A stretch of 52,139 bases of DNA from Psammoneis japonica (taxonomy: Eukaryota). The DNA lies in contig QPGO01000062.1 of assembly GCA_008632985.1 (NCBI GenBank), positions 372,001-424,139 on the forward strand, in the 5' to 3' direction. The first letter of the stretch is position 1, and every line of letters begins with the position of its first letter. Made by a program: the position numbers and the translations under genes. The notes beneath the pieces were generated by a model, which saw nothing but the letters and a program-made list of their open reading frames with translations, had not been told where the DNA came from and did no database searches. Below, piece by piece: positions 802 through 38,430 of the stretch.

Positions 802-1077
802 TGACAGAAATTGAAGGCAAATGGCAAGAATTCAAACAACAACTCCTTGCTGCTGTCTAAATGGCAGATGAGTCTCCGCTCAGAGACCGTTGCAGGAGCC
901 GAAAGACGTGCAAGTCGGCACAATCGGGCTGCTGTTGTCATTCTTGTGAGCCGTGTGGCTCGAAAGCAAACTGCATCGCATGCGAACGCGCAGAACTAAA
1001 GCACACAAAACTGTGCGCGGCAAACTAAACAGCACGCGACATTTCGCGCGCACCTGAATCCTGTTCAAATCCTGTCA
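802..1077 (-). repeat. 276-bp LTR of Copia family A
   Basis: Inverted copy of 9097-9372, with TGACAG...CTGTCA termini and an adjacent polypurine tract (GGGGAG on the minus strand). Confidence 0.92.
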
Positions 1078-3212: not shown

Positions 3213-3607
3213 GACGCGTTCCAGACGCAGGTGGGAATCCGTGTGACATTGGGCCCGCAGAATTCTGCGTGCGAGCTCCGCAGTAAAATTGTGCGGCAAC
3301 AAAAATGTCAACAGTCGCCAACAGAAAATGAGGCAATTTTGCGAACACACAAACTCGCCCATGATTGAAGTGCATCATTTTTTACTTGGCCAGTTGCATT
3401 CTTCAGACATTGAAGAATGTAACTGTCCCATCATTGTTCCCACAAATTCGTCACATGAAACGTCTGGGGCTTCGCAAAACAGCGAGTCTGGACAATTTTT
3501 TTTAAATGTCACACGTGGAAATGTGCGTGCGAAACACACGACGGATGACAAAAATTTTTGTGTCACACGTCAGTGCTGCGAGCTCCCACCCAGGGCTGGA
3601 ACGTGTC
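3213..3607 (+). mobile_element. 395-bp MITE copy 1 (TpA-hypermutated), inserted in the Copia integrase region
   Basis: TIRs GACGCGTTCCAG...CTGGAACGTGTC. 4-bp TSD ACGG (3209-3212 / 3608-3611). The empty site is visible in the paralogous Copia at about 6541-6560. Confidence 0.95.
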
Positions 3608-3663
3608 ACGGGTTCCCACCAGTGAAAGCAAAGCAATGGGCTGATGTCCGGGGTGGAGCCAAT

Positions 3664-6600
3664 GTGATCCCTTTGCCCCGCAGTTATAAGAACATGTTGT
3701 CAGCTCCAATTGGTCTGCACATTGTCAAAGCACACGAAGGTCTTGACATTGCCAATGACTCCTCGTTGTTCACGCATGACGAGTTCCTTGCCTGCCGCCT
3801 CAGCCCCGACTGCATGTCTTCTGTGTCCGTCAGCAGCTCGCCCCTCGCACCTCCGCATGTCACCAACGCGACCAAGGCACGCGACCCGGCACGAGACTTC
3901 AAACAAGGCATCAAGTGTGACCCCACCGCTTTCACGGCTCTCAAATCCGACAAGCAGTGGCACACTTGGCACACCTCACTTGTGGCACAAGCCCATGTCC
4001 AAGACGTCAAGTGTGTTCTAGACTCATCGTACAAACCGACCAGCCCCGAAGACAAACTGCTCTTTGCTGAACAGCAAAAGCACATGTTCGCCGTCTTCGA
4101 ACGCATCCTTCTCACCAACAAGGGCAAGGCTCTCATTCGCGAAAATGTGGGGTCTTCTGACGCCCAGACCGTCTGCCGCGCCTTGTCTGAGCATGCGCTC
4201 GCCTCCACCCATGCATCTGTCAAGTCCTCCACCTTGCTCACGTGCCTCACCACCGCATGTCTTGGTGATGGCACTTGGAAAGGCCCGACCCACGGGTTCA
4301 TCCTTCATTGGCAAGATCAGTTGCGCAAGTGCGAGGCACTCATCCCGGCCAGTGACCACTTCTCTGAAAGACAGAAGCGCGTCATGCTCGAGAATGCTGC
4401 ACATCCTGTCAAGGAACTCCGTGCTGTCAAGAACCAAGCTGATCAGCATCACACGCAGAGTGGCAAGAGCCTCACATGCGATCAACATTGTGGCTTGCTC
4501 CTCTCCACGGCGGCTCAATGCGACAGTGCGTTTCAACCCAAGACGACACCTCGAGCTCCCTGATGCGCCACACACGCACACGACGTCCACTCCGAGGAAC
4601 CGTCCGATGATGTGTTCTGCGACATTGACAGTGACATTGACGTCCTTCAGGCCAATGCTGCCTGCACCCATGGTCCCAGCCTCACCGGTGACCAATGGAA
4701 ATGTCTGCCTCCCGACCACCAACGGATTTGGGATTCGTTGCCCCATTCCTCCAAGGCAATCATCCTTGAGCATTCTCGTCTGCCTCCCCGCAACCCGCGA
4801 GCCAGCAACTGCCATGAGTCCATTGCGGCCAACCTTCACGACCAACGCCTTGGGAGTGACGGTGATGTCAACTTGTCCAACACGACTCCTGCTGACTCTG
4901 GTGACCCCGCTCCAAATGTGGATGCCACTTTGGACAATCCCATCCTGGCGCACCTCACCAAGTGCAAGCCACTGCCACCCGGTGATCTGCAACGCCTGTT
5001 GTCTCCTGACCAAGCCCCCAATGCCAGTTGACCGGGGCCATCCGCCGCTCCCTCTGCCTCGCCAGCTCCCACCGATGACACAGAACTTAACGGCCGCACT
5101 TGCCGCCGCGTCAATGACCACAATGTCATTTGCTCTGCCTCTGCTCATCGCTCCACACGCACTGGTGCTCCAGTCGATCGTGGGGCCAATGGCGGCATTG
5201 CTGGCGACGACGTTCGCGTCATTGCATGCACCTCTCGCCAAGTCGACGTTCAGGGCATTGACGACCATCAATTGGTGGACATCCCTGTTGTCACCGCTGG
5301 TGCCGTCATTGAGACACAGTGTGGTCCCGTCATCGCCATCCTCCATCAGCACGCATGCACGGGAAAGGGCAAGACCATTCATTCCTGCGGCCAGCTCGAA
5401 TGGTGCAAACAGGATGTCAACGATCGCTCTGTCAAGGTGCCCAACGGCTTGCAATGCATTGCCACCCCTGATGGCCATGTCATCCCAATTGACGTCAAGG
5501 GCGGCCTGCCTTGTGTTGTCATGCGACCTTGCGCTGACGCCAAATGGGACACCCTGCCCCATGTCATCCTTGCCGGTGATGACACATGGGATCCTTCCAC
5601 CTCGATCACTCTGTCACTGACGACGAACAGTGGCACGACGCGATCTCTGACCTGCAGGACGATCCCACTGCCAACCCATTTGACGAATGCGGCAACTGCC
5701 ATCATCGTGTCATTGTCAACAAGACCATCATGTCCGCTTCCTTGTCTGCCGATCACGCGTCCGCCCTCGATGATCACCTCATTCCGAACGACGACGTGTT
5801 CCACGAGTGTCATCTGCACACGATTGACCCCAAGGACGATGACGTTCCGCCCCCGGAGTGCACTGTGCAGCCCAAGGACCCCCCCTTCGAGTCTCTTTGG
5901 CCTTGCTTTGGCTTCCTGCCTGCCGAAGCGGTCAATCGCACTTTTGACTGCACCACGCAGCACGCCCGCATGCCCGCCGGTGCACACCTCAGGAAGGCCT
6001 GCAAATCGCCCAACCTCGCCCTCAATGTGCACCGCCGCAACGAGCCTGTCGCCACTGACACCGTTTGTGCCGACACCCCGGCCATCGACTCTGGTTGCAC
6101 CAGCGCCCAACTGTTTGTTGGCACCGAGTCTGCCGTCACTGACGTCCACGGCACCAAAACGGACAAAGAGTTTGTCAACACACTCGAGGATCAGATCCAT
6201 GAGCGTGGTGCCCCATCCAAACTCATTGGCGACCGTGCTCAAGTTGAGATCAGCAACAAGGTGCTCGGGATCCTACGAGCCCTCTTCATCTCCAGCTGGC
6301 AAAGTGAGCCTCACCAGCAACACCAAAACTTTGCCGAGCGTCAATGCCAGACCGTGAAGCGCATGGCGAACACTGTCATGGATCGTTTCGGTTCACCTGC
6401 CCACACATGGCTGCTGGCACTCATGTGCGTGTGCTTCATGCTCAACCACGCAGCATCCCCACGTCTCCACTGGTGCATGCCCCTCAAGACTCTCACTGGC
6501 TCCACCCCAGACATCAGCCCATTGCTTTGCTTTCACTGGTGGGAACCCGTGTGCTTCCACCTCGATGACTCCGATTGGCCGTCCGAGTCCCGTGAGTTGC

Positions 6601-10432: not shown

Positions 10433-11749
10433 GATGTGTTTTCATCCTGGGTGAGAAACTTTTGGACACATCACGAGGTTTTCTACGTGTTTCTACGTGA
10501 GACGTACATTCAGCACCAAAAATCTTTGTAAAAATCGCGCTCCATGACAGCAAAAACACATTTTTCCATGTCTCGAACCACAAACCACAATTCGCGCAAA
10601 CCGAAAATGGCACCATGCCGTCGCCATGAACTCGTCCATTCTTGCACCAACGGATGTTGTGACTGAGAAGGCAAGAATGCCGACACAGGTCAACAAGACA
10701 ACACTCAATGCGACAATGTGGTTGAAAATTTGATCTTTGTTTTTTGTTGTGCCTTGTGGACAGCCTTTTGACTCATGACATTTTTGATGCCTCTTTCTCT
10801 CTTCCTCAGCTTGCGAAGTGGGATTCTCATCAACGCGCTGCTCCATCAACTTGACACCAGATGCGGACAACGAAGAATGTTTTTATGACACGTTGCTGTG
10901 ATTCTTACAATGCATCGTCCGCACTTTGAGTCGTTGTGGACGATGCTTTTGGGTCGCGCGACAACATCAGATTTCGCCGCCGACAAGAGAATCGTTGTGT
11001 GTCCAGTTTTGAGGGTGTGTGAGGACAAAGAATCTCAGATGCAAGTGTGACAGTTTCATTGTTGTAAAGTGGAACAACACCATCAGTGATGTCCAAGTGT
11101 TGCAGCCATTTTATTTTATTCTAAGATGGAACCAGTCATTTTGAGCGGTGAAATTTTGTCAACATTTCATCTTTAACTCTGCTTGGGCACATCAGATCAC
11201 ATGGTGACTGGACACACATTTAACTTTGATGCTGCCATTTCAATCCCATTGTTTCATTCACTCAAGTGTCCCACACAGGTCGACAAATCAGTTGATCTTT
11301 GAAATGGCCGATCGCGCAAAAAAATCACGTGCGAAGTCAGTTCCCCCGATTTTTCTCATGCAAACAATGGAGTTAGAACGCCGTTCTTTTTTGGTGTGAG
11401 CTCTTCACACAATGAACAATGCGCACATTCTTTCAAAGCAGTCAGATTCGGTGAAAGAAACAGCAGAACAGTCTCTCAAATGCACCAGAATGACAACAAC
11501 GAGCAGCCAGCTGTCAGTTTCACTCGAAAAAATGCCGCTTTCGAGACAGCGCTTTTCTTGCACGCGCCCTTCAACCAATGAGAACAATGGCTGGCTTTTC
11601 AAAATAAACATGTCTGTGGAAAGAAGAAACGAAAAATCGGGGGAAAGTCCAGTCAGATTTGCTCGCACAAAAAGCACGGCGACGGAAAAGGGACAGACGA
11701 AATGTCTCACCTCCGTGTGCGCGTTTCTCACCTGGGATGAAAACACATC
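10433..11749 (+). mobile_element. ~1.3-kb non-autonomous TIR DNA transposon, copy 1
   Basis: 27-bp TIR GATGTGTTTTCATCC[TG/CA]GGTGAGAAAC at both ends. Flanks GTCT/ATCT fit a 4-bp TSD with one TA->TG change. No recognisable transposase. Confidence 0.88.
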
Positions 11750-12240: not shown

Positions 12241-12635
12241 GACGCGTTCCAGCCCTAGGTGGGAGCTCGTAGCACTGACGTGTGACAACAATAATTTTTA
12301 TCATCCGTCGTATGTTTCGTACGTAGATTTCTACGTGTGATATTTAAAAAAATTGTCCAGACTCGCTGTTTTGCGAAGCCCAAGACGTTTTATATAACAA
12401 ATTTATAGAAACTATAATGCGCCAGTTACATTCTTCAATGTCTGAAGAATGTAACTGGCTAAGTAAAAAATGATGTACTCCAATCATGTGCGAGTTTGTG
12501 CGTTCGCAAAATTGCCTCATTTTCTGTTGGCGATCATTGACATTTTAATTACCGTATAATTTTACTACGGAGCTCGCACGTAGAAGTCTACGGGCCCAAT
12601 GTCACACGGATTCCCACCTGCGTCTGGAACGCGTC
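12241..12635 (-). mobile_element. 395-bp MITE copy 2 (TpA largely intact, young)
   Basis: TIR GACGCGTTCCAG at both ends. TSD GGGC (12237-12240 / 12636-12639). Inverted relative to copies 1 and 3. Confidence 0.95.
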
Positions 12636-13361: not shown

Positions 13362-14677
13362 GATGTGTTTTCATCCCAGGTGAGAAACGCGCGTGCGGAG
13401 GTGAGACGTTTCGTCTGTCCCTTTTCCGTCGACGTGCTTTTTGTGCGAGCAAATCTGACTGGACTTTCCCCCGATTTTTCGTTTCTTCTTTCCACAGACA
13501 TGTTCATTTTGAAAAGCCAGCCGTCACTCTCATTGGTTGAAGGGTGTGCACAAGAAAAGCGCTGTCTCGAAAGCGGCATTTTTTGGAGTGAAACTGACAG
13601 CCATCTGCTCGTTGTTGTCATTCTGGTGCATTTGAGAGACCATTCTGCTGTTTCTTTCACCAAATCTGACTGCTTTGAAAGAATGTGTGCATTGTTCATT
13701 GCACAAAGAGCTCACACCAAAAAAGAACGGCGTTCTAACTCTGTCATTTGCATGAGAAAAATCGGGGGAACTGACTTCGCACGTGATTTTTTTGCACGAT
13801 CGGCCACTTCAAAGATCGACTGATTTGTCGACCTGTGTGGGACACTTGAGTGAATAAAACAATGGGATTGAAATGGCAGTGTCAAAGTTCAATGTGTGTC
13901 CAGTTGTCATGTGATTTGACATGCCCAAGTGGAGTTAAAGATGAAATGTTGACAAAATTTCACCGCTCAAAATGACCAGTTCTATCTTAGAATAAAATGA
14001 AATGGCTGCAACACTGAGATGTGCCAATGGCATTGTTCTACTTTACAACAATGAAACTGTCACACTTGCATCTGAGATTCTTCATCCTCACACACCCTCA
14101 AAACCGAACACACAACGATTCTCTTGTCGGCGGCGAAATCTGATGTTGTCGCGCGACCCAAAAGCATCATCCACAACGACTCAAAGTGCGGACGACACAT
14201 CACAAGAATCACAGCAACGTGTCATAGAAACATTCTTCGTTGTCAGCATCCGGTGTCAAGTGGATGGAGCAGCGCGTTGATGAGAATCCCACTTCGCAAG
14301 CTGAGGAAGAGAGAAAGAGGCATCAAAAATGTCATGAGTCAAAAGGCCACCCACAAGGCACAACAAAAAACAAAGATCAAATTTTCAACCACATCATCGC
14401 ATTGAGCGTTGTCTTGTTGACCTGTCTCGGCATTCTTGCCTTCTCAGTCACAACATCCGTTGGTGCAAGAATGGACGAGTTCATGGCGACGGCATGGCGC
14501 CATTTTCGGTTTGCGCGAATTGTGGTTTGTGGTTCGAGACATGGAAAAACACATTTTTGCTGTCATGGAGCTCGTTTTTTACTGAGATTTTTGGTGCCAA
14601 ATGCACGTCTCATGTAGAAACACGTAGAAAACCTCGTGATGTGTCCAAAAGTTTCTCACCTGGGATGAAAACACATC
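13362..14677 (-). mobile_element. ~1.3-kb non-autonomous TIR DNA transposon, copy 2 (inverted)
   Basis: Reverse complement of 10433-11749 with the same TIRs. Flanks ATGC/ATGG match at 3 of 4 positions. Confidence 0.88.
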
Positions 14678-23127: not shown

Positions 23128-24288
23128 ATGACGGGGTTTGCTCTTTGCTTACCTGTAAGGCTTCTCCTGGGGATGATCTTGGCGCTCAGCGATGGTGACA
23201 TGCGACAAAACAATATCCCATCAAGACGGAACAGTGGAAAGAAAGCTGTTTCTTCCATGCTCCGTAACGTTTTCGAACAGGATGACGAGAAGGATATCAA
23301 TTATGATGAAAACAACGTCTTTTGGCAGAGACTCTTAGAGAACGTTGGAATGATGAGCGCACCAGTCCCAAATTGTGGACCTCCGCCCGCTCCAACTCCT
23401 GTCCCGGCCTGCACGCCAACAACGGGAGCTTGTGTCTCGACCTTCGTGAGCCTTCAGACGGAGCTGGATGAAGCAGGTCCAAATTCGGTTGTTTCTCTCT
23501 GCGGATCAAACACAATCACTACGCCTTCCGCCGTCTCTGTTACCCAGTCTGGCATTTACTTGTGCTGCGAATCGGAGAATTGCATCATAGAGAGCAGCAC
23601 AACGTCTTCGGATCGGAATCTTGTCGTGACGGGTCAAGACTTTACAATGGCCAAGATGGACATCCGAGGAGGTAGCACTGGGGCAGGACGAGGCGGAGGA
23701 AATGTCGAAATCATCTCCAACGGTACGCATCGTATTTTAGAATGTAGATTTGAAAGCGGTCAACACCAATTCGGTGGTGGAAACTTGTTTATTCAAACAT
23801 CCGGCGGTGTTCTGGTAGATAAGAGCAGGTTCGTCAATGGTGATGCTCCAGGAGGCGGAGGTATGTACGTGTTGGATGCCTCGGATGTTGTCATTACGTC
23901 AAGTGAGTTTTTTGGCAACAACGCTACTGGCACTGGCGGAGGAGGTCTCCTGACAACCCTTTCCACACCGACATCTCCCACGGTGGGACAGCGTATATCC
24001 ATATACAAAACATCCTTTGAAGAGAACACTGCCAGTTTCGGCGGTGGGTATTTGGCGACTGCGATAGGGCAAATGCCTCGTTTGACTATTGTGGATAGTT
24101 TGTTTGAGCAGAACATCGCGTTTGAGGGGGGCGCAGCGGGAATTTTTCTGTATGATGACATTAACACTTTGGATTTATCGCTGTGCTCCAATGATGAGTC
24201 CAAGAACGTTGCAGAGAACGAGTGTGATGACTTTCTCTTCTACTTGGAGGATGACAATCGCTGTATTGCAGTCACTGAGGACTTTTGA
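23128..24288 (+). CDS. Secreted right-handed beta-helix (pectin-lyase-fold / Pmp-repeat-like) protein, 386 aa
   Basis: Hydrophobic N-terminus, Pro-rich linker CGPPPAPTPVPAC, and repeated FxxN..GGG/GGA motifs (FFGNNATGTGGGG, FEENTASFGGG, FEQNIAFEGGAAG). Confidence 0.8.
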   Translation: MTGFALCLPVRLLLGMILALSDGDMRQNNIPSRRNSGKKAVSSMLRNVFEQDDEKDINYDENNVFWQRLLENVGMMSAPVPNCGPPPAPTPVPACTPTTGACVSTFVSLQTELDEAGPNSVVSLCGSNTITTPSAVSVTQSGIYLCCESENCIIESSTTSSDRNLVVTGQDFTMAKMDIRGGSTGAGRGGGNVEIISNGTHRILECRFESGQHQFGGGNLFIQTSGGVLVDKSRFVNGDAPGGGGMYVLDASDVVITSSEFFGNNATGTGGGGLLTTLSTPTSPTVGQRISIYKTSFEENTASFGGGYLATAIGQMPRLTIVDSLFEQNIAFEGGAAGIFLYDDINTLDLSLCSNDESKNVAENECDDFLFYLEDDNRCIAVTEDF

Positions 24289-24652
24289 GAGATTACCGCG
24301 GTTGATTGCAAAGGTCAACTACTGTTGCATGGTGAAACGGAGAACGAGAAAATGAATAAACACAATGCAACAACAATGCTAGGCATGTTATACATAAAAA
24401 CACAATACATGAGCAAAGATCTCGTCTTCTTGTATCCTCACACTGCATCCATACAACATTTCACTGGCCCTGGCATTCGAAGTTCACCGTTGATCGATCA
24501 TGTCATTTAACATCGGGCTAGAGTTCCTACGTTTGCTGCTGACGAGAGAGACATCATCCGACCGCTCAAACGTGCTTCTTGGTAAATTCAAAGCAGACCC
24601 AAAGTCAAGCCTCTCAAGAGGGAGTTACTGACCGGCCTTCTCTTTCTCCAAT

Positions 24653-24657
<5 letters not shown>

Positions 24658-24694
<37 letters not shown>
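24658..24694. repeat. (GA)n microsatellite of about 18 units
   Basis: Perfect GA run. The paralogous site near 37792 has only tagagag. Confidence 0.95.
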
Positions 24695-24696
<2 letters not shown>

Positions 24697-24889
24697 CTGT
24701 GCTCAGCATCCTTTAGAAAGTTCATCTGCAACAGCTGGCTTGTCCTTTTGCAAGACCTTTTTCATGCAGGTCTGAAAGCACATCTGACCAGGCCTGTCAG
24801 GCAGTTGCTGCATGCAGTTTGAAAATGTCTGTCTCTAGAATGGCTGCTGCATTCAGAGGGTGCACTTGCACCTGCTGCCACAATGACAT

Positions 24890-24970
24890 TCAATGCAACT
24901 GAGAACAACAGGGCAGCTTCTTGACATGATGCTTCCTTGCTTTCAAATCTCCTTGCTCTTGTTGTTGCAG
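24890..24970 (-). pseudogene. Hypermutated 3' remnant of the 37981-38430 gene
   Basis: QQQEQGDLKARKHHVKKLPCCSQLH* versus the intact RRQERGDAKTKKRHVKKLPCNSQLY*. Confidence 0.85.
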
Positions 24971-27029
24971 CCATTTTGTGTGTGAATTTTTTTGCACCAA
25001 AGTGGCTTGGTTCTTTGTTTTGCCATGCGGATCCTTCTTTTCCCTGTCTTCTTGTTGCATGACATTGAAACATCCACCTTGCTTTGGGGCGCATCTTGTT
25101 GCAGAAAATGGGATCCCTCCATCCATCCATGTGCTCGTTTGCACATGGAAACTGCACACATGTCAGTTCTGCCAACACCAACAGGGTGGAGACATTTTTT
25201 CTTTCTTGTTCTTGGTGTGACTTGATGTGTTGATGCTGCACACACAAGTCTTGTTGTGTTGCTTTTTTCAATGAAAGAAACACAAAAAAAAGAGAAAGGC
25301 TTGGTGGTTTTTGCTGCTGCAGACCTGATGACCTTAACAAGCTTTGCTCAATGTGACCATCTGTTGCACAAAACAGGCCAAGTTGTTGTTGGGGAACAAT
25401 GCCACACATGCATTGTTGCTGCTTTGCTTGAGAGTGCTGCAGCACCAGCTGCAATGGGTTGCTTGCTGCATGTCCCAAAAAGCCAACAGTTTTTAGAATT
25501 GATGCAACAGGAGAAAAATGTGCTGTGACTTTGTTGGCAGAGCAAAACACAATGCTTGGTTGCCCACTCAGTTTGACAAATTGTGCCACACAGCAGTGCA
25601 TGCCACAAATGCTTTTGGACAAGAATGTGGTGGTGACACACATTGTGCATGTTGAACAATGGGAGCAAAACCCAGTCTGAGCTCCAAACAAGAAGTCAAA
25701 AAGAATCTGGTGCTGCCACCAGAAGAAAGAGTCATCCTGCAGACTGCAGAACAAGCAGCAACAGAGAAATGAGTCTCAAGCAGAGCATGCAGGGTGTCAG
25801 TTTGACTTTTTCAATGCTGGAGTTGAAGAACAACAAAGGTGACAGGGACAACAAACAGTGCGGCACACTTCAGCAGAAAGCAAAACAGACAAGTGCCACA
25901 CCATCAGTTTGTAGCTGGATGTCAACAAATGTGCTGCAGCACAGTCGAGAGGTTTGTTGCCAAGTGACTTGAGTCAAAGCTTCTTGTTGACACATCACAA
26001 AGTTGCTCTGAATCTTCTGTCCTCCTCAGCACTGTGCATTTTCAGAATGGGAGGAGAAAATCCATTTTGACTTTGTTTTGGCAGAGCAAAACCTCATGTG
26101 ATGCTCTTGTGCCACCTCAGTTTCACTTGTTGTGCAACCGCTGTTGGCTGAGAACATTGTGGGTTGATCAGCGGGAACAAACCCCAACCCAGAGTGCCAA
26201 AAAAAAGAATCTGGTGCAAACAAGCAGCAGCAGAGTGCTAAAAAAAGGGTCAAGCCCAGAGAGTGCACCATGTCAGTTGTTTGACTTTTCCCACACCAGA
26301 GCTGTTGATTGAACAGTGTTTGGCAGCAGTGCTGTCAATTGAGTGGCAAATGGCAGGGGGACAACAACAGTGCTGTTTGCTTGGCACAGAGCAAAACAGA
26401 ACACAAGTGGCTGCTGCCATTGGCCTGGTTGCCTTGGACACCACAACTCTCTTGCTCTGCACTCTTTTCTCTGTGTTGATGTCAGTGGACCCTGTCAAAG
26501 CAACAATGCAAAGAGCCTCAAAATGCATGCACAGGGCTTGCAACAAGAACATCCAACAGCAACATTGTGAAGAATTTTGTCCAGCAGCTCAAGTTGCAAG
26601 TTCTCATCCATTGCTCAGACTCCTCTGTCCAAGCTGTTCTCATTGTCCAAACTGTTGTCATTGGATGAACCACAGTTTGATTTTTGATGAGATTTGGTTC
26701 TTAACACCCTCAACACACAAGCAGCAAAGCTGCAAAGTTCTGGAGCTGCCTTTGATGTTGATGATGCAGCAACGCTGGGTGGCCAATCTTGAAGCAAGCA
26801 ATTGGTGCCATCTGTCTTGTGGTGGAAGCAAATGGCTCAAATTGGTGTTGCTGTGAAGCATCAACATGTGCCATTTCCCAACTCAAGCTTTGTTCACACA
26901 GGCACAACATGCAGCCAAAGCAGCTTGAGGAGTTTCAAGCTCATGCACTGGCCTTTGTCCACAGGCAGATGCAGCCATGCTCCTCTTCACATTCTTTGTC
27001 AATCAAGTTTGCTTGAATGGGGGGCTGAT

Positions 27030-27720
27030 GTGTGGCTGTGCTGCGGGGTGTTGAGGTTGTTTTGTGCGCACTTTGTGAGTGCTGTGGGCACACCAGGGCT
27101 GCCCAAGGCAGCCAGCAGCACATTTGTTGAGCTTGGAAATGACCTGTTTTTGCAAAATGCTGGGATGGAGTGAGGAAAGACTCCAGCTGACCCTGCCAAC
27201 ATGCCACCACACACAGGCTTGCAAAAGCAGCAACAAAGAGAAGCACTGTGCTGATGACAAGCTTGCGCCATCAGTGCAAAAGACAAGCCTCCTGGAGGGG
27301 CTGCTGCAATTGCTTGTTTTGGTTGCTTTTTTGGGTGGCTCTTTTGGTTTCATTGTGCTGCTTCTGGCTTGTGCACATCCATTTTCCATGACACCCTTCA
27401 ACCCAACAAACTCACTGTTGGGCTCCATTTTTTAATGACCTGTGGTGCCTGGCAGTTTTCTAGATTGTGGAGAGCATCCATGATTTGCAGTTGCCACAAA
27501 GCTCACCTCTCTGAGTGTGGCTTGAAGTTTCAAGCTTGCAAGCTCACTTGGATTTGTGGCTGCATGTGATTTGTGCCACATTGCAAAAAATAAAAGGCCA
27601 CAAGACCTGTGCAAAACAAATTTCCACATCAACTTTGGAGCCCCCCCCCAAGGCAATGCTTGCGTGGCCAAGGGAGAAATTTGAGGATGCACAGCTGTGG
27701 ACTTAAAATGAAGCAAATGC
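27030..27720. repeat. Old degenerate dispersed repeat (copy 2 of about 150-800)
   Basis: Same collinear blocks as 150-800, in the same orientation. Confidence 0.7.
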
Positions 27721-28105
27721 AACACCAATGGAGCAACCATGACCAAAACTCACTCACAAAACCAGTGCTTGAGCAACGCACCCAGTCAAGGCACTCAGAG
27801 CTCAAAGTTGGATTGTCCGCCGTGTCAGGCAGCTTCCATGACATCTGCTTGTGACTCACTCTGACACCCCCCTGTCATTGGCAAGCCAACTCAGATGCCA
27901 GATGCGTGCGGCAATTGTTGCAGACATTGTCACCACTCTTGCAGGTTGCTCTTGCATCCCCCTGCACTCCCACTCATGGTTGTTTTTTGCTTTTTTCTTC
28001 AGTGGCAGATGCAGGGAGTCTGGGTCACACTGCGCCAGTTCTGGCATCTTCTCTCTGGCCCCTGCCCTCTGCTGTGCTGGCAACAACAAACCTGAGAGGA
28101 AAGAC

Positions 28106-28301
28106 TGACAGAATGCCAAAGGTCAACAGTGACAGAGGCATGAAAGACTCCCTGAAGCACCAGGACTGTGATGACACGAGTGCCAGTAGATGAGAAAGTG
28201 AGAAGCAGATCTCAGAGAGATCTGCTCGTCTGTCTAAATGGTCTGGCCATCATCCGCATCCAGTCTGTCCATCGTACGACATGCAGACAGACAGGCTGAC
28301 A
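28106..28301 (-). repeat. 3' LTR of Copia B (196 bp)
   Basis: TG...CA termini. Direct repeat of 35015-35212. Confidence 0.95.
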
Positions 28302-31300
28302 CCCTCCCCTGATCTGCAATGTCTCAACATAGAGAATGGGGCAGATCAAACCAAAGAACAGGGATGATGTAAGGAAACAGAGAGACCAGACACAGGACAC
28401 GACAAGTGTCCATGCCCAATGCGCCATCAAACAAGGGGGCAATGTGCAGCAGGGAGGCCACCGCGGAAAAAACATCAACAGCAGCGTCCCATCATGCGTC
28501 GAGCGTGGCGGGCATGTGGCACCCAGCCAAGGGCCTTGGCAAGGTCATTGCCAGGGTTGACAATGCCAGGGACATGTCTTGTGACAATCTTGCCCACTTC
28601 CTTCCATTTTTGGATCGCAAAAAACTGGACCTCAACGTGACGGGATCGCTCGGTCGGGATCAAATGATTGACGATCTTGATTGCCGATTCGTTGTCAATG
28701 TGCAATGGGGTTGGCTCCGTCTGAGAGAAGCCTGGTTCATGTGGGATGTGACGAAGGTAAAGGACATGCTTGGCAGTGGTGCCAGCAGCGCAGAATTCAG
28801 CTTCCGCAGAACTCGCAGCAGTCGCCGATTGGGTCTTGCATCAAAAGGATGTGGCAGCACCGGCTAACATGCAAGCACAGCCAGTCACAGAGCGACGGTT
28901 ACGGAGGTCATTGCCACATGCAGCATCCAAAAAGGCAACAAGTTGATGATCATGTTCTGGGAAAGGGAACGATGGTAGGGTCGGGTCCGGAGTGAGACGT
29001 TCGAAGGGGCAGGCGGGCAGTCTTGAGTCTCGGGTGGGCTTCTTGCAGTTCAGTTCCCAATGCTTGGTGCGTCAAAGGCACTTGCATGCTCCCTTGAGTG
29101 CATCACAGTGAACCAAAGCAGGACAGGCAGAGAACTTGGAGAGAGCAGTGATGGCATGTCCAACATCCAATCGACAGACAACATGCGCACACAACAATTC
29201 ACCAAGTGGAGTGCGGCACCCAAAACCAGCAGCTTGTTGTAACTCTGCATGTTCCGGGGTTCCTTCAGCTGGACCAACAGCAGTGCACAGTTCACGAAAA
29301 GAGTCAACCGGGATTGGCGCAGCCTTGCAGTCATCGTCGAGTTCCTCTTCCGTCGGTGTCGACCATCCATGCGAGGTGCAAACCCGATCAACATGGCTGT
29401 GAACAGCAATGCCAACAGAGTCATCATGTTGATGAACATCCACACCATTGAACTCTTCAATCACGCCAAGACACTTGAAAGGCAGGGAGGTTTCCGATTC
29501 CAATTCAAGAGCTTTGCCAATCTTGTCGTGTGTCTTGATCGCAAGGGACTCTTCAGGACACGCAAGGGAGAAGTCATCAACCTGATGGAGGAGCAAGATC
29601 TTGTGTCCCTCAAAAGCAGCAGAACAGATGCATTTGTCATGAGCGGTGTTGCGAAAAAGTGGATTCACATCGGACAAAATGCCGTTGATGTGCATCTCCC
29701 AGAGCACGCTGGCTTCTGGGTGTCCCTGAAGTGCATGTTGCATCGGAAGCACCATGGTCCCATCCAAATCAATGCCAAACCGAGCCTTGTGCCAAGTCGC
29801 GCATGCTTCGTCAACAGCAACACAGACGGGGTGTGACGGTCGTGGAGAGTGTGCACAGGCATCATGAGCATCACCACCAAACACAGGGTAGCTCACAGTC
29901 GCAGCAAGGGCAAAAAACATGCGTTGGACAGGTTGTTCCACACAAGAGGAGTGGGTTGAGTGAAGACAATGGAGGATTGACGCAGCACAAGGAGATCCAT
30001 CGCAGCATTGTCAAGATCGTCGCGTGCCATCATGCTTGAGATCATGTTGCCAATGTGGACAAAGGACTGTGGCATCCTTTGGACATTCAATCGGTGCACC
30101 AAACATCCCCAACTCATGGAATTGGTCAAGTTGTTTGAATTCACCCACATGCCATTCGGGCCAGGTGCCCAGCTTCTTGAGACAATGGCGAGTGAAAGCA
30201 CCTGACGCTTGTTCCTCCGGAGCAATGGCATGAGATGAAATGGTGCAGATGTTGACCACACCATTGTCGCAGTCGACATGGATCAACGGAGGGATGTCAT
30301 CATCGTCCACATCGGAAAAATCAACATCAGGGTGACGGATGGCAGCAACAGCATGCATGTCAGCATTGGCAATTTCCGGGACATGTTCGTCATCAGGGTC
30401 AGGAGTCGGTGCACAGACATTGTGTTCCATCAGGGCACGTTGTAGAGCCTGGGAGTCCAGTTGACGTTCCGGCGCAAACTCGATTTCAAAGTGAGTCTTG
30501 CCAGAATCACAGACTTGTCGAAAACGTTTGATGGCCTCCTCTGCCACAAAGACAGGGTGATCATCAATCAATGCGACACACGCACCCTTGATCTTGTTGC
30601 AGGTTGCCTTCAAAGAACAGAAAAGACGCGCAGCAGGAGAACCATGCTTGACATCAGAGACAAACACTTGCTGATGGAGATCATCCGCAGTCAATGAAAT
30701 TCCAAATGTCGGATCAGCAAACGGCCCCTTCATCGTATGCGCAATGGTCTTGGCAAAAGGATTCCCATGAAAGTGGAGCTCGTCCATCGTAGATTCTTCA
30801 GTCTTGGCAGGTGAAGCCTTGCCATCTTGAGCATGCTCCAAGTGAACCACATTCGGGGGAAGAGAGTCGTGGGGTAGATCATTCATGCCCTCATCATGAT
30901 GAATGTGCTTGGCAAGCTTGACACGCGACGTCTCGGTGTCACACCAAAGGATGTTCTTGGTGGTGTCTGGAAGATGGCCCAAGAAAACACCCTTGCAAGA
31001 GACAGACCGAAATTTTGCTGGGCGGTGATTCGACGCACGCACCCACACTTGGCAACCAAACATGCGAAAGTTCTTGAAATCATCCTTTCGACCAGCTCAG
31101 CAAGAGCAATCGGAGCAGCAGGTTGTCCGCGGGATGGCACAGCGTTGTTGATTCGAGTGAAATGATGAAAAGCACAGGGCCAGAATTTTGTGGGCAAATT
31201 GGCACCAATGAGCATCGCCCGGATGGCATCAGCAACAGTCAAATGACTGCGTTCCACTGGGCCACTCTGGTTTGAAGCATCTTTTCCCGCAGGACAAATT

Positions 31301-33514
31301 GCGCGGTGAAAGTCATCCTCGAAAAGTCACCGAACCTCTGGGTTTTGATGCAATTCACCTCCTTGATCCACAAACACACATTTGTCTGGACATTTTGGTG
31401 AGTGCTCTTCCAGAAAGTGGCGAAGCCAATTCAGAGGGGTTGCCTTGGACGGTGGAGATGCTTCGTTTTATGATCGTAGATGGTGATCCAACAAGTCTCG
31501 CCATTCAATCCAACACAGTCTTTGGTGCGCTCCGAGTTCTTGGACCGCAGGCCAGAGAAAGAAAAATCAACCGCAAGACCTTGGCAGGGTTGGGTGGCAG
31601 CAAGAGCAGTGTTCGGACCAGCAGGTTCCTTTGTCTGCTTTGCTTGTGTGCATGTGGGACAAGTGTCGAGAGGAGAAGTTCCGTGGGCAAACTTGGGGAC
31701 ACCGTGTTCATGGGCATGACAAAGGCAGTGATCACTCGGATGACCAAGTCGCTGATGCCATGAAAGGCATTCCGTGTCAGCCTTGAGAGATTGGACAGGG
31801 ACATTCTTCTCTGCATGCTCTTCAAAAGGAACATCTTGATGCACTCGGGGGATCAACTTGCATTCAGCACGAAGAGCGTCATGTTGGCAGGTGTGACATG
31901 TTTCAATCATGTGCACAGAGACTGCTTCACACTCATCAGCAAAGGAAGGGTCACTGGTCTTGAGGCGCTCAACAGATGCACCCAATTCATCGTTAGATTC
32001 TGGGAGGATGAGAGGGTGAGCAAAGCATTTGCCATTGATCAATTTCCCATGAATGATGATGTCCTGATTCTTGTGCAATCGGTGTCGTGCAACAAACTTG
32101 CAGGTGCCGAGATCATGGAACTTGAGGACACAATCAACATTGTGGTCTGCACGACGAGGGCCATTTTGACGAAGGAGGAGTCGCTCATCAACCAACGTAG
32201 ATTGGATCTGTGGGTGGCAGCAGGCACGAACCTCAACACATCCATCAGAGTTCTCTGCAGGGATGCGAAGACATCCGAACCCAACTGGGACAGCTTGATG
32301 GCCAAGGGCCGGATTGACAGCAAGGGGACAGGGATGGGACGGAGTGAATTCTTGGTGTCGGTGGAGAAGGTCACGGTCGCCTGCACATGCAACATCAGCA
32401 CCAGCATCCAACTGAGCACAACACTCATTCGGAGCAAAATTTGCCCCATTGACAGAACAAGTTGAGCGCAACAGTTCCGGCTCAGGAGAGTGACTCGCTT
32501 GGTGTGGATCGATCGGAGTGACACGAACAGAATTGATGGCAGCAAAACCATCTTCAACAGCCATGTCATTGCAGGTGAGGTCAATGTGTTCCTCAAAATC
32601 CGGTGTTTCTGGGTCTTCCCTCCCCTGTTCCAAAGGATCCGGAGCACAAGCAGCATCGACGGTGTCTTCCATGGGAGCAGGGTCATCATCTGGTAACTTG
32701 CTGGCATCAAATGACACCTTCGTGGCAGTGGAAGGGGTGGCATCCATGTCAATCTGTGAAGAAAGAGGCACTTCAGTGGCAGATGACGAGACGGTTGGTC
32801 CCTCTTTCAAGGTCATCCCGCTGACATCAGTCTTGTCTCGGTGAGGAGAAAAACGGGCAGTGTCGGAGATCCGAAACTAGCTGCGACGGCCCGATTGAAA
32901 ATCCGAGGGCGGAGCACCAGATCTGGGCGGATTTTCAGGGTTTTCATGATGAGGTGGGAGCAGACCTTGGGATCCTTGGAACTCAGAAGCACGCACAGCT
33001 GCTTCCCTCTTTAAGAATTGACAAAAATGGATGTGAAATCCCTTGATGTGTGGGTTGTTCTTCAGGGCCGGACAGTCATCAAACAAATGCTCTCCGGAGC
33101 AGACAAGACATGGTTTCTTGGAGGCTTCATTCGGAGCAACTTTCAGTTTGCAAACTGAAGCCAAACATGCATGGTGCAGAAGTCGATCTTCGTCCGTAGA
33201 AGGGATCTCGAGTTCATGCAATTCGTCACAAAAAGCATCAAAGGTGTCCAGAGGTGGAGATTCCGCACCAGTGTCTTCAGTGGTGGAGTCATCGACTGGT
33301 TCAGGAAGAGATGTCTCAGGGATCTGGAGAGCACTGACATTGACAGCCGTGCGTCGCGCATCCTCAGCTGCTTGATTCCATGTGCGGCGGGGATTGGATT
33401 GCGTCGCACGAGTGGCAAAGGATGGACTGTCCGGTTGGCAGAGGAAATCAGAGAGAGTCTCGACAATCTGTGCATCTGTGCACTTCTTCTGCACAGCTGG
33501 AGACTTCCGTTCAT

Positions 33515-33909
33515 GACGCGTTCCAGACGTAGGTGGGAATCCGTGTGACATTGGGCCCGCAGACTTCTACGTGCGAGCTCCGTAGTAAAATTATACGGTA
33601 ATTAAAATGTCAATGATCGCCAACAGAAAATGAGGCAATTTTGCGAACGCACAAACTCGCACATGATTGAAGTACATCATTTTTTACTTAGCCAGTTACA
33701 TTCTTCAGACATTGAAGAATGTAACTGGCGCATTATTGTTTCTATAAATTTGTTATATAAAACGTCTGGGGCTTCGCAAAACAGCGAGTCTGGACAATTT
33801 TTTTTAAATATCACACGTAGAAATCTACGTACGAAACATACGACGGATGATAAAATTATTGTTGTCACACGTCAGTGCTACGAGCTCCCACCTAGGGCTG
33901 GAACGCGTC
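33515..33909 (+). mobile_element. 395-bp MITE copy 3 (TpA largely intact, young), inserted in Copia B gag
   Basis: TIRs GACGCGTTCCAG...CTGGAACGCGTC. TSD TCAT (33511-33514 / 33910-33913). Confidence 0.95.
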
Positions 33910-35002
33910 TCATCTCTGGTGGCACGAGATGAGAACTTGGAGTGCTTGGTGTTCTTGACAAAGACAGTCATCTCCCGTGGATCGTTCAACGTAGAGTCCG
34001 CATCAAAAATGCAGGCATGCAGCTGTGGGAAATCATTGAAGATCATGTGGCAGTCTGTCAATGATCGATTGCCTTGGACAGGATGGGAGTCAACCAGTCC
34101 AGCAGCATCGTGGTCGAAAGCAGGATGATTCTCACAGACAATCTGCTTGAGAGCCTTGTGTCCATTGCCGCAGCATGATGCAACAATCCGATGACATTTG
34201 CTGTTCTTGGGGAACACACCCGACTTGGATGAGATTTTGTGGAGAGAGCTCTGAGCTTCCTTGCAGTGGACGCACATGCATTGAGGCAAGTCATCATCCT
34301 TGCCGTTTCCGATCTCGAAACCTTTCACACCACCGTGGTCCTCAGCAAAACACCACAATGGATGCATGTGGCATCCTGAATCAAAGGCATGACGTTGGAA
34401 ATTTTGGCACCATGCTCGCATCCCAGGGGGAGAGTCGTCGTGACATGCAGGAGGTTCCCTGAACAACATTTTCTGGTCAGGAGTCAAGCTCATGATGAAA
34501 AGGGTGCCATCGTTGAGGATGATGCAATTGGATGCATCAACACAGTGACGGAATCCATGGTTGCAAGGGACGAGGGAGCTCTGAAGAGCAACTTTTCCGT
34601 TCGTGGATGAAGTGATCACGAAGCATGTCCGCAAAATCTTTCTTGGGTTGCACGCGCTCTGGATCGTCAAAGAACGGGTCGAGATCAGTTGTGGAGTCCG
34701 CACAAATCGCACCCAGGCAGCCATGTAGATGTGGCATCGTTGTGTGTGCCTCGAACTCACAGCAGATCTCTGCAATGGACGGAAGAGTGGGCTTTGTGGG
34801 GTCGGAAGACACCATGGTTTTAGTTGGTGGAGCCATTTTTGGTCATGCACGCGCAGAAATCTGGTGTGTTTCTACGGTCATGAAAAATGCCGGGAAAGCG
34901 AGACAAAAAGTTGTCAGATCAGACGATGAGGCTCGCTCGATCGGCTCACAAAAGAAATGAATCGAAACAGAAAGCTTGGCGCACAGGTCTGTGGCACAGC
35001 AC

Positions 35003-35014
35003 GCGGCCATGACC
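35003..35014 (-). other. Probable primer-binding site of Copia B
   Basis: GGTCATGGCCGC directly follows the 5' LTR. It resembles the GGTTATGG-type PBS of copia elements primed by an internal tRNA-iMet fragment, with TA->CA. Confidence 0.55.
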
Positions 35015-35212
35015 TGACAGAATGCCGAAGGTCAATGGTGACAGAGGCATGAAAGACTCCCTGAAGTGCCAGGACTGTGATGACACGAGCACCAGCAGAT
35101 GAGAAAGTGAGAAGCAGATCTCAGAGAGATCTGCTCTCGTCTGTCTGAATGGTCCAGCCATCATCCACATCCAGTCTGTCCATCATGCGACATGCAGACA
35201 GACAGGCTGACA
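35015..35212 (-). repeat. 5' LTR of Copia B (198 bp)
   Basis: Direct repeat of 28106-28301 with a 2-bp indel. Followed by TSD AAGAC. Confidence 0.95.
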
Positions 35213-36298
35213 AAGACAAGAAGAAAGAGAAGAGGGAAAAGAGGGGGGGGGGGGGGATTTTTGGCCACTGCAGATGCTGCCTTTTGCTGCACTGCTGGAA
35301 GGTTCCAACACACACACACACAGAAGCTCTGTGGCACATGAGGAGCAAGTCACCCACGATGTCGTCAAAGGATTCACCCTGTCAGTGGGTTGGGGGGGGG
35401 GACCAGAGTGCATCACAAACTGGAAGGAAAGTGTTTTTTGCAGGATGCCGCAGCACACACGGCAGCAGTGGTGGCCGTTGATGAGCCCTCCTTCCCCCCC
35501 ACGACCAACGCTTCCCACAACCAGGAGCAGCCTGCCCGCCCCCCCCTCCCCCCATGATCTTTTGCTCCATGTGACTCTGTGAGGCCACCAGCACAATTGT
35601 CCCTTGCAAGACTGACCAAGCCAAAAGGGCAGGGCCTCAAGTTGTCAAAGGATTTTGACCACAGAGAGTGGGCTGAGTCAGATGAAGGAATGATGATGAG
35701 CACTTCAAACAACAAGGCAAGAATTTTTGGTGGCATTTTGTGCAGCACTGCAAGGTGTGGTGCACACCACCATCCAAAAAGATTTTGTTGGTTGTGATGC
35801 ACTTCTTGGATGACACAACTGCCCACACACACAACACTTTGGAAGTGTGCTCCTGTTGTGGTGGTGGTGGTGTGTGTGCTCTTGCTGCTGTCTCCTGCTC
35901 TGCGCCACTTTTTTCTCACCCCACAAACCTGAGAGAGGATTTCCCAACATGAACTCACACGTATGCACCACTTTCTCACTGCATGTGGTTTCCAAGTGCA
36001 TGAGCTTACCAACTGAGAAGGAAGAAGGAGGGATGCCCCCGCCTCCATCCCTCGTCGTTTACTGCAACCATCCTCGCTCTAAAGTGGTGCGAGGATCAAT
36101 GGTCATGACTGTATGATTATCAACCGTTAATATAATTATTAATTCTTTATTAAATTGAAATAGAAATTGCTAATATACGGTACATATAAAATGTGTACTT
36201 AACAACGATATTTTGAATTTCAACTGAAAAGGTATCGCTTGCTCACATTTTTCTGCGAACAATCCAGATCGCAACATCACATGCAACATTCCGCTACA

Positions 36299-37464
36299 AT
36301 GACGGGGTTTGCTCTTTGCTTACCGGTAAGGCTTCTCCTGGGGATGATCTTGGCGCTCAGTGATGGTGACATGCGACAAAACAACATCCCTTCAAGGCGG
36401 AACAGTGGAAAGAAAGCTGTTTCTTCCATGCTCCGTAACACTTTCGAACAGGATGACGAGAGGGATATCAACCATGACGAAAACGATGTCTTTTGGCAAA
36501 GACTCTTAGAGAATGTTGGAATGATGAGTGTATCAGTCCCAAATTGTGGACCTCCGCCCGCTCCAACTCCTGTCCCGGCCTGCACGCCAACAACGGGAGC
36601 TTGTGTCTCGAACTTCGCGAGCCTTCAGACGGAGCTGGATAGAGCAGGCCCAAATTCGGTTGTTTCTCTCTGCGGATCAAACACAATCACTACTCCTTTC
36701 GCCGTCCGTGTTACTCAGTCTGGCATTTACTTGTGCTGCGAATCGGAGAATTGCATCATAGAGAGCAGCACAACGTCTTCGGATCGGAATCTTGTCGTAA
36801 CGGGTCAAGACTTTACAATGGCCAAGATGGACATTCGAGGAGGTAGCACTGGGGAAGGACGAGGCGGAGGAAATGTCAAAATCATCTCCAACGGTACGCA
36901 TCGTATTTTAGAATGTAGATTTGAAAGAGGCCAACACCAATTAAGTGGTGGAAACTTGTTTATTCGGACAACCGGCGGTGTTTTGGTAGACAAGAGCAGG
37001 TTTGCCGAAGGCGATGCTCCAGGAGGTGGAGGTGTGTATGTGGAGGATGCCTTGGATGTTGTCATTACGTCTAGTGAGTTTTTTGGTAACAACGCTACTG
37101 GCACTGGCGGAGGAGGTCTCCTGACAACCCTTACCTCACCGACATCTCTCACGGCGGGACAGCGTATTTCCATATACAAAACATCCTTTGAAGAGAACAC
37201 TGCGAGTTTCGGCGGTGGGTATTTGGCGACTACGATAGGGCAAATGCCTCGATTGACTATTGCGGAGAGTGTGTTTGAGCAGAACATGGCGTTTGAGGGG
37301 GCGCAGCGGGCACTTTTCTGTACGACGACATCAACACCTTGGATTTATCGCTGTGCTCCAATGATGGGACTGAGAATGTTGCAGAGAACGAGTGTGACGA
37401 CTTCCTCTTCTACTTAAAGGATGCTGTGAACACTCGCTGCATTACAGTCACTGAGGACTTTTGA
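36299..37464 (+). CDS. Second copy of the secreted beta-helix gene, with a 1-bp frameshift near the 3' end
   Basis: High identity to 23128-24288. The G run at about 37297-37301 has 5 G versus 6 in copy 1. The homologous C-terminus (..VTEDF*) continues in another frame to 37464. Confidence 0.75.
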
Positions 37465-37980
37465 GAGATTGCCATGTGTGATTGCAAAGGCCATCACTGC
37501 ATGGTGAAAGGGAGAATGAGAAAATGAATAAACACTGCGCAAGAACAATGCTAGTCATGTTATACACAGAAACACAATACATAAAAGCAAAGATCATTTC
37601 TTCTTGCGTTCTCAAGCTGTATCCTTATAACATTTCGCTGGCCCTGGCATTCGAAGTTGCGCACGACCATGTCACTCAACACCGGGCTACTTATGCGTGC
37701 TGACTAGAGAGACATCATTCGAGCGCTCAAACGTGCTTCTTGGTAAATAAAAGCCGGCCTAAAGTCAAGTCTCTCAAGAGTCACCGCAACTAGAGAGCGT
37801 GCTGTGATCAGTATCCTCCGGAAAGTTCATCCGCAAAGCGAAACCTTTTTCTGGCAGATCTGAAACTACATATCTGACTCTAGGCCTATCAGGTAGTCGC
37901 TACGTACAGTTTGAAGATGTCTCTAGACTATAGCTACCGTATTCAAAGCGGCGTGCTTGCGCGTTGTTCCGTAATGGCGT

Positions 37981-38430
37981 TCAATACAATTGAGAATTAC
38001 AGGGCAGCTTCTTGACGTGACGCTTCTTGGTTTTCGCATCTCCTCGCTCTTGTCGTCGCATTCGTTCTTGGTGCAAGCTACCCAACACGTGATTGACTTG
38101 AGAGTAATCCTTTACGGGCGGTTTATTGGGTTCTTCTACCTTTGTTGATGCAGGCTTGCTATAATCCGAGCTCGTGTCTTGACCCGGAACTTGTTGTCGG
38201 TGGTGCTGCTCTTCGTTTTCGTCAATCATCATGTTGTGTTCATCATCTCGTACTGTTGTAACAGAAGCATATTCTTCGATACGCATTCTCTTGAATGAGT
38301 GGCTCGGGTCGTCTTCGACGGCAGCGGCATCTCGTGGGCGCTTGGACGTGTTGTTCTTGTTGGGATGAAAAGAGTGCGTGCTTCGAGGCCTTTTCGTGTG
38401 TGGTTGCAGAGGATGATTGGAAAAACTCAT
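37981..38430 (-). CDS. Hypothetical hydrophilic protein (149 aa)
   Basis: ATG-to-TGA ORF with normal dinucleotide composition and basic NLS-like patches. Its 3' end is duplicated at 24890-24970. Confidence 0.6.
   Translation of the reverse strand: MSFSNHPLQPHTKRPRSTHSFHPNKNNTSKRPRDAAAVEDDPSHSFKRMRIEEYASVTTVRDDEHNMMIDENEEQHHRQQVPGQDTSSDYSKPASTKVEEPNKPPVKDYSQVNHVLGSLHQERMRRQERGDAKTKKRHVKKLPCNSQLY

What the first reader, a model, noticed from the sequence alone, without database searches (positions are those of the whole stretch)
28106..35212. Surviving TpA sites are strongly enriched in TAGA/TCTA context: an enzyme-like sequence preference
Outside the MITE, about 13 of about 27 residual TA sites in Copia B are TAGA/TCTA (e.g. 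cgTAGAt near 30790, 31476, 32198; cgTAGAa 33197; cgTAGAg 33992; tgTAGAt 34725; tTCTAc 34874), versus roughly 1 in 8 by chance. The same context survives near 1330, 8842, 9727, 10181, 16008 and 17841, and in the CACGTAGAAA subterminal motifs of both 1.3-kb elements. TAA/TTA sites also survive often. This could fingerprint the mutator or mark a protective DNA-binding protein.
Basis: seen in the sequence. Interest (0 to 1): 0.7.

Follow-up and report, generated by a model that had tools for sequence, protein, structure and literature searches.

The report
Flanking rule of diatom TpA mutator
In this diatom's transposons almost every TA step has been mutated to CA or TG, and TAGA sites survive because the mutating process is slowed by particular neighbouring bases, probably including methylated cytosine, which gives a fingerprint for the still unknown enzyme.

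Summary
Confirmed: 13 of 27 residual TA sites in Copia B are TAGA/TCTA. The bias holds after correcting for ancestral context: 12 of 46 survive versus 14 of 314. TAGA is not a motif of its own. A flank model over four repeat families (402 sites) predicts TAGA survival without a TAGA term, also in a held-out family; TAAA is usually better protected; no footprint was found. The cause is a post-insertion TpA-to-TpG/CpA mutator of repeats, like that reported in Bigelowiella natans. It is fast when the A is followed by a pyrimidine. It is slowed on both strands by T two bases upstream of the TA. A CpG cytosine at that position acts like T; other cytosines do not. This suggests a duplex-acting enzyme hindered by C5-methyl groups, and it explains the cgTAGA survivors; methylation was not measured. 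The scan noted this mutator, its TAY preference and CpG-adjacent protection before on other pieces of this genome. I did not see the 'CpG cytosine equals T' rule in those notes. Enzyme unidentified.

The parts
28106..35212 (-). Copia LTR retrotransposon copy ('Copia B'), TpA almost erased; 27 TA left outside the MITE
   Evidence: RVT_2, SH3_retrovirus and gag_pre-integrase matches on the minus strand, RVT_2 below the curated cut-off; 5-bp duplication AAGAC on both sides; TA counts
28106..28301 (-). 3' LTR
   Evidence: 92% identical to 35015-35212; all 14 substituted columns lie in TA/CA/TG/CG steps
35015..35212 (-). 5' LTR
33515..33909 (.). young 395-bp MITE inserted after the Copia was mutated; keeps 29 TA
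   Evidence: 4-bp duplication TCAT, 98-99% identity to many copies
32196..32201 (+). cgTAga site, doubly protected context; TA kept in 23 of 24 other copies
33990..33995 (+). cgTAga site; TA kept in 24 of 24 other copies
34871..34876 (-). cgTAga site on the minus strand; TA kept in 20 of 20 other copies
30788..30793 (+). cgTAga site that is mostly lost elsewhere (TA in 6 of 23 other copies): the context slows but does not stop mutation
3213..3607 (.). old copy of the same MITE, 4 TA left; direct before/after comparison
12241..12635 (.). second young MITE copy, 30 TA
10433..11749 (.). 1.3-kb terminal-inverted-repeat element, 14 TA left; subterminal TCTACG sites at 10484 and 10494
13362..14677 (.). 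second 1.3-kb element, 12 TA left; subterminal TAGAAA sites at 14615 and 14625
4000..6500 (-). inner stretch of the other Copia family ('Copia A'), used as held-out test

Best explanation
A repeat-targeted process converts TpA to TpG or CpA in each transposon copy after insertion (shown). One change destroys the target, so a TA survives only if the event is slow on both strands. Written on the strand where A becomes G, the event is fast for T-A-pyrimidine and slow for T-A-purine, and it is slowed about three- to fourfold by T two bases 5' of the TA, equivalently A two bases 3' of it, on either strand (shown, statistically). A cytosine at that position slows it just as much when it is in CpG and not otherwise (shown). 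TAGA has a purine after the A on one strand and the blocking T on the other; cgTAga has a block on both sides. Inferred: the block is the C5-methyl group shared by T and 5-methylcytosine, read on double-stranded, CG-methylated DNA. Inferred, weaker: the chemistry is adenine deamination by an unidentified enzyme; the data cannot tell A-to-G from T-to-C on the other strand.
For: Spectrum in the 1.3-kb family: A after T changed to G in 2013 of 5250 cells, other A in 68 of 9745, 35 of 6471 and 25 of 6723. CA/TG choice is independent between copies (mean excess agreement -0.013, -0.006, -0.016). Flanks at +-1 gain 458 and +-2 a further 450 cross-validated log units; TAGA adds none. Held-out Copia A: TAGA sites 96 of 251 kept versus 100.8 predicted. 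Window copy predicted from the three other families: 9.0 TAGA survivors versus 12 seen (P=0.14), context-free 3.3. Making +-2 strand-symmetric costs nothing (3.9, CI -23 to 30), making +-1 symmetric costs 159. Reading a CpG cytosine as T at -2, with no extra parameter, gains 189 versus 195 for free CpG terms; three control recodings lose 48-157. Relative survival: cgTA 1.68, tgTA 1.20, agTA/ggTA 0.46; ccTA/caTA 0.68 versus 0.56 for purines and 1.68 for T. Survival with 0, 1, 2 blocks: 280 of 4788, 838 of 3958, 531 of 1333. Alignment-free data on 190,400 masked bases, run before the idea arose, show the same order (TACG 0.095, TACA 0.060, TACC 0.019, TACT 0.013). CpG decays in these repeats (268 of 4676 versus 16 of 14,426 other C), the usual sign of methylation.
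Against: The methyl reading was formed after seeing the fitted numbers; leave-one-family-out gains are clear for two families (85, 160) but not for the MITE (3.6, CI -23 to 30) or Copia A (26, CI -9 to 65). Decay rate of the neighbouring CpG does not track protection (rho -0.004, 58 sites). The direct contrast 'CpG decayed to blocking T' versus 'inner base changed' is not significant (OR 1.8, p=0.24). The strand carrying a single block takes 0.39-0.40 of events, so symmetry is approximate. The model explains only part of site variation (Spearman 0.66; 0.55 held out) and missed TAAA in Copia A (3 sites, 3 of 63 kept, 0.32 predicted). Columns changed to one product in nearly all copies escape detection, which biases rates. 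No methylation data and no enzyme.
Confidence: 0.72

Rival explanations
1. Same mutator, but the CpG effect is pure sequence or DNA shape, with no role for methyl groups.
For: No methylation was measured; CpG decay rate does not correlate with protection; A-tract contexts are the slowest, which fits a shape effect.
Against: C at -2 matches T only inside CpG and a parameter-free recoding captures the whole effect; caTA, also a pyrimidine-purine step, is not protected (105 of 1411); GC instead of CG gives no gain.
Confidence: 0.3
2. A sequence-specific protein (for example a transposase on CACGTAGAAA) shields TAGA sites.
For: In the 1.3-kb element the two subterminal sites are kept in 32 and 35 of 36 copies versus 23 and 24 predicted; ten sites at that end have a mean residual of +0.17 (p=0.014, post hoc).
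Against: No protection of neighbours within 12 bases; the same motif in the MITE is kept as predicted (16 and 14 of 27 versus 15.5); CpG effect vanishes one base further out; no TAGA-specific gain.
Confidence: 0.06
3. Selection on the Copia protein, or descent of copies from already mutated parents, preserves these sites.
For: Some sites are kept in nearly all copies; one pair of Copia B copies shares states (excess 0.32).
Against: CA/TG choices are otherwise independent between copies; the two LTRs of one copy differ at such steps; the rule learned on the non-coding elements predicts Copia B (rho 0.42 survival, 0.39 direction).
Confidence: 0.04
4. Base-calling or assembly artefact at modified bases.
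For: The sequencing method of the assembly is not known to me; run X1 may be the same sample.
Against: Contigs of run X1 match mutated stretches (30449-30648, 33202-33460) without a difference at single-copy depth; a twin of this copy on another contig has the same counts; young MITEs inside depleted DNA keep their TA.
Confidence: 0.02

Closest known systems
TpA hypermutation of integrated NCLDV and virophage DNA in Bigelowiella natans (Mettrop et al., bioRxiv 10.64898/2026.01.13.699255)
   Same: TpA to TpG/CpA only, confined to foreign or repeated DNA, enzyme unknown, adenine deamination proposed.
   Different: Here a diatom, acting on Copia elements, MITEs and TIR elements to near saturation. 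The preprint's text gives no flanking rule ('flank', 'context', 'trinucleotide': 0 occurrences); its Figure 2B and supplements were not seen.
Repeat-induced point mutation (RIP) of fungi
   Same: Repeat-targeted transition hypermutation with a dinucleotide target; diatoms carry RID-like DNMT4 enzymes of unknown function (PMC9998398 passages).
   Different: RIP is C to T and creates TpA (abstract); this process removes TpA.
TadA/ADAT adenosine deaminases
   Same: Preference for 5' U/T and for pyrimidine neighbours; UAU best for TadA8.20 (PMC12027372 passages). Rare non-TA A-to-G changes here also prefer a 3' pyrimidine.
   Different: TA selectivity here is 55-fold or more versus 5- to 10-fold reported; UAG was edited well there while TAG is slow here; the two-strand effect at +-2 is not expected from a single-strand substrate (inference).
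CG methylation of diatom transposons by DNMT5 (PMC9998398)
   Same: CpG decay in these repeats and C5-methyltransferase genes in the genome.
   Different: Explains CpG loss, not TpA loss; no DNMT5 was identified here.

Membership tests
Bigelowiella-type TpA hypermutation | A:T to G:C transitions confined to TpA | tested here: met
   38% versus 0.4-0.7% per A
Bigelowiella-type TpA hypermutation | confined to foreign or repeated DNA, genes spared | tested here: met
   TpA o/e 0.02-0.2 in repeat zones, 0.4-0.8 in gene zones
Bigelowiella-type TpA hypermutation | acts on integrated DNA after insertion | tested here: met
   LTR differences, young versus old MITEs, independent choices per copy
Bigelowiella-type TpA hypermutation | about 1000-fold raised rate, active in only some lines | not testable with these tools
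   needs mutation-accumulation lines
Bigelowiella-type TpA hypermutation | same enzyme and same flanking rule | not testable with these tools
   enzyme unknown in both; the preprint's mutation table was not seen
RIP | C:G to T:A transitions that create TpA | tested here: not met
   CpA to TpA in 10 of 6473 cells
RIP | RID/DNMT4 dependence and premeiotic timing | not testable with these tools
   27 methylase matches, not classified
TadA/ADAT DNA deamination | 5' T and 3' pyrimidine preference | tested here: met
   +1 weights A 0.42, C 2.00, G 0.64, T 1.88
TadA/ADAT DNA deamination | a dedicated DNA-acting deaminase gene | tested here: inconclusive
   five MafB19-deam matches (four distinct genes) and two A_deamin loci, all explicable as ordinary enzymes
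TadA/ADAT DNA deamination | the altered base is adenine | not testable with these tools
   TpA is palindromic; A-to-G and T-to-C are indistinguishable in assembled DNA
Protective sequence-specific binding protein | protection extends over a footprint of neighbouring sites | tested here: not met
Protective sequence-specific binding protein | motif-specific excess over single-base effects | tested here: not met
Polymerase eta WA signature (recalled, no call) | A to G at both TA and AA | tested here: not met
   AA 0.7% versus TA 38%

The most novel reading that the evidence does not exclude
Diatoms have a natural enzyme system that edits TpA in double-stranded, CG-methylated repeat DNA and senses C5-methyl groups (thymine or 5-methylcytosine) two bases from the target on either strand, so that the surviving TAs record both its recognition geometry and the past methylation state of each neighbouring CpG.
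Probability: 0.4. Interest if true: 0.82.

Novelty: new variant of a known kind. Interest (0 to 1): 0.6.

Why it matters
TpA hypermutation has one report that I could find, in an unrelated alga, with no enzyme and no flanking rule in its text. A quantitative rule that predicts held-out families gives a benchmark for testing candidate enzymes, and a way to ask whether the diatom and Bigelowiella processes are the same. If the methyl reading holds, the mutator works on methylated duplex DNA, unlike the single-strand adenine deaminases used in base editing, and links genome defence in diatoms to CG methylation.

Tried and rejected
TAGA-, cgTAga- and TNTANA-specific terms: no cross-validated gain. 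CpG one or two bases further out, and GC in place of CG: no gain. Positions +-4: no gain. Clustering of residuals along elements: none (p=0.24, 0.17). YTAR alone describes the window copy weakly (OR 2.8, p=0.04). Tet_JBP search: no match, but the control was silent too, so uninformative. Deaminase searches gave no stand-out candidate. Homolog search with the Tic110 gene gave no names of use. No RNA holder listed. A random genome-wide sample was not obtained; flanks of held loci were used, which are biased to repeat-rich places. Whether mutation is episodic cannot be told, since MITE copies were picked by two queries. Paper searches for a diatom report or a flanking rule found none besides the Bigelowiella preprint; subscription journals are largely not covered. 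PMC12398605 (passages) and bioRxiv 10.64898/2026.08.24.746577 (outline) were opened and were not relevant.
Full report
Setting. The window lies in a 91-Mb eukaryotic assembly with many silicon-transporter genes (24 matches, best E 2e-208) and a Tic110 gene, so the host is most likely a diatom. Repeat zones have TpA observed/expected of about 0.02-0.2 and raised CA+TG; gene zones have 0.4-0.8. 28106-35212 is a Copia element on the minus strand with two LTRs, a 5-bp target duplication and a young MITE at 33515-33909.

Observation. 13 of the 27 TA outside the MITE are TAGA/TCTA, against 96 of 658 in genes (p=3.6e-5). For the ancestral correction I projected other copies on the window copy (25 of 30 loci; left out: the copy itself, its twin, two divergent copies, one near-duplicate). 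Of 360 TA-derived columns the window keeps 12 of 46 in TAGA/TCTA context and 14 of 314 others (OR 7.6, p=1.2e-5). An alignment-free count on 190,400 depleted bases of flanking DNA, with three families masked, gives 191 of 656 survivors in TAGA/TCTA versus 301 of 2109 in undepleted DNA; TAAA/TTTA is more enriched (47.6% versus 16.6%).

The process. The MITE has young copies with 27-32 TA and old copies with as few as 3, so direction is seen directly: TA goes to CA or TG. In 36 copies of the 1.3-kb element, A after T changed to G in 2013 of 5250 cells, other A in 0.4-0.7%; CpG cytosines decayed in 268 of 4676 cells, other C in 16 of 14,426. The CA/TG choice is independent between copies, and all 14 substituted columns between the two LTRs lie in TA/CA/TG/CG steps. 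So each copy was mutated after insertion. Contigs of a public run match mutated stretches exactly (that run may be the assembly's own sample).

The flanking rule. I fitted competing per-strand rates with one exposure per copy to the 1.3-kb element (36 copies, 73 sites), the MITE (60, 31), Copia B (27 copies, one dropped as non-independent, 223 sites) and later Copia A (21 copies: 20 of 40 hits plus the window's; 75 sites). Weights on the strand where A becomes G: +1 A 0.42, C 2.00, G 0.64, T 1.88; -1 A 1.64, T 0.64; -2 T 0.47 versus A 1.49, C 1.43; +2 A 0.51 versus 1.1-1.35. Cross-validation by site: TAGA alone gains 155, +-1 gains 458, +-2 a further 450, +-3 80; TAGA on top of +-3 changes it by -14. 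Trained on three families, the model predicts 100.8 kept cells at TAGA sites of Copia A versus 96 of 251 seen, but overpredicts its three TAAA sites. Trained without Copia B it expects 9.0 TAGA survivors in the window copy versus 12 seen and 3.3 without context. TAGA is thus the second-slowest half-site after TAAA in the model (0.14 and 0.10 of the fastest), not a separate signal.

Two further features. First, the +-2 effect can be made strand-symmetric at no cost, the +-1 effect cannot: T at -2 slows the event on both strands, though the strand bearing it takes somewhat under half of events (0.39-0.40). Second, a directly adjacent CpG slows the rate to 0.26-0.43, the largest of 16 dinucleotide terms. 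The product of the C weight and the CpG term came close to the T weight, which suggested, after the fact, that a methylated C acts like T. Recoding it so, with no extra parameter, gains 189 versus 195 for free terms, while recoding the inner base, recoding to a purine, or recoding non-CpG cytosines loses. Model-free: cgTA equals tgTA (p=0.25) and exceeds agTA/ggTA (p=4e-9); ccTA/caTA equals purine contexts (p=0.35) and falls below T (p=2e-5; sites are counted once per flank). With 0, 1 or 2 such blocks survival is 5.8%, 21% and 40%; in the window copy 5 of 181, 11 of 148 and 10 of 31. Copies whose CpG lost its inner base keep the TA less often than those with CpG intact (OR 4.2, p=2e-5); those that turned the outer base to T do not differ (OR 1.4, p=0.31); the two decayed classes do not differ significantly (p=0.24). 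Against: two of four held-out families give no clear gain, CpG decay rate does not track protection, and methylation is inferred from decay and from passages of PMC9998398, not measured.

Protective protein. No footprint beside retained TAGA sites, no motif-specific excess, and the CACGTAGAA motif behaves as predicted in the MITE. The end of the 1.3-kb element that carries the motif is somewhat more protected than predicted, which leaves room for a small local effect.

Enzyme. Searches found a TadA-like, an ADAT2-like, a dCMP-deaminase-like and a deaminase-oxygenase fusion gene (labels from Pfam matches and my reading of the sequences) and two A_deamin loci. None stands out. TadA-type preference for U/T before and pyrimidine after the A (PMC12027372 passages) resembles the inner rule, but the two-strand effect points to a duplex substrate (inference). 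Thymine chemistry on the other strand is not excluded.

Comparison and verdict. The process works like the TpA hypermutation of Bigelowiella natans (bioRxiv 10.64898/2026.01.13.699255; read parts 1-3 of 5, abstract to conclusion, plus a term search; figures and supplements not seen) and meets the features I could test. It is not RIP. I found no paper on it in diatoms or on its flanks. Earlier scan notes on this genome report the mutator, the TAY/YTAR rule and CpG-adjacent protection; they gave me the preprint lead. Two word searches of the notes for the methyl-mimic idea returned nothing, and only short extracts were visible. Verdict: real, a by-product of the mutator's flank rule, with a testable mechanistic hint. 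New variant of a known kind; interest 0.6.

Noticed in passing
G000, 27 matches; L165-L171: Many C5 cytosine methyltransferase matches, at least five with a full-length domain in intact frames; looks like more than the handful listed for model diatoms. Not classified.
   Followed up: partly
L172:1112-2652, L173:503-2219: Two separate A_deamin (ADAT1/ADAR-type) genes; the second could be tested as a mutator candidate.
   Followed up: partly
L163:316-1791: Zinc deaminase domain fused to a 2OG-Fe(II) oxygenase in one frame.
   Followed up: no
1.3-kb element family: Rare A-to-G changes outside TA also prefer a 3' pyrimidine (67 of 5716 before T, 37 of 4675 before C, 12 of 8519 before A), suggesting off-target action of the same process.
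   Followed up: partly
window 33515-33909, 10433-11749: The MITE and the 1.3-kb element both have 4-bp target duplications and share CACGTAGAA and CCACCTAGG motifs near an end; they may use related transposases.
   Followed up: no
window 25000-28000, 39000-42000: Zones that have lost CpG as well as TpA (CpG o/e 0.05-0.15), probably older than the Copia copies, which keep most CpG.
   Followed up: no
window 23046-24969 versus 36223-38060: Duplicated beta-helix gene region; the end of the first copy (about 24750 onward) is TpA-depleted while the matching stretch of the second is not, so the mutator may reach non-transposon DNA.
   Followed up: no
window 1025-9149 and other repeat zones: Long open frames on both strands, an expected side effect of losing TAA and TAG; they should not be read as genes.
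   Followed up: no
window 43356-44559: Gene with about eight 48-residue repeats and thrombospondin type 3 repeats.
   Followed up: no
window 18590-20344: Ankyrin-repeat plus TIR-domain gene.
   Followed up: no
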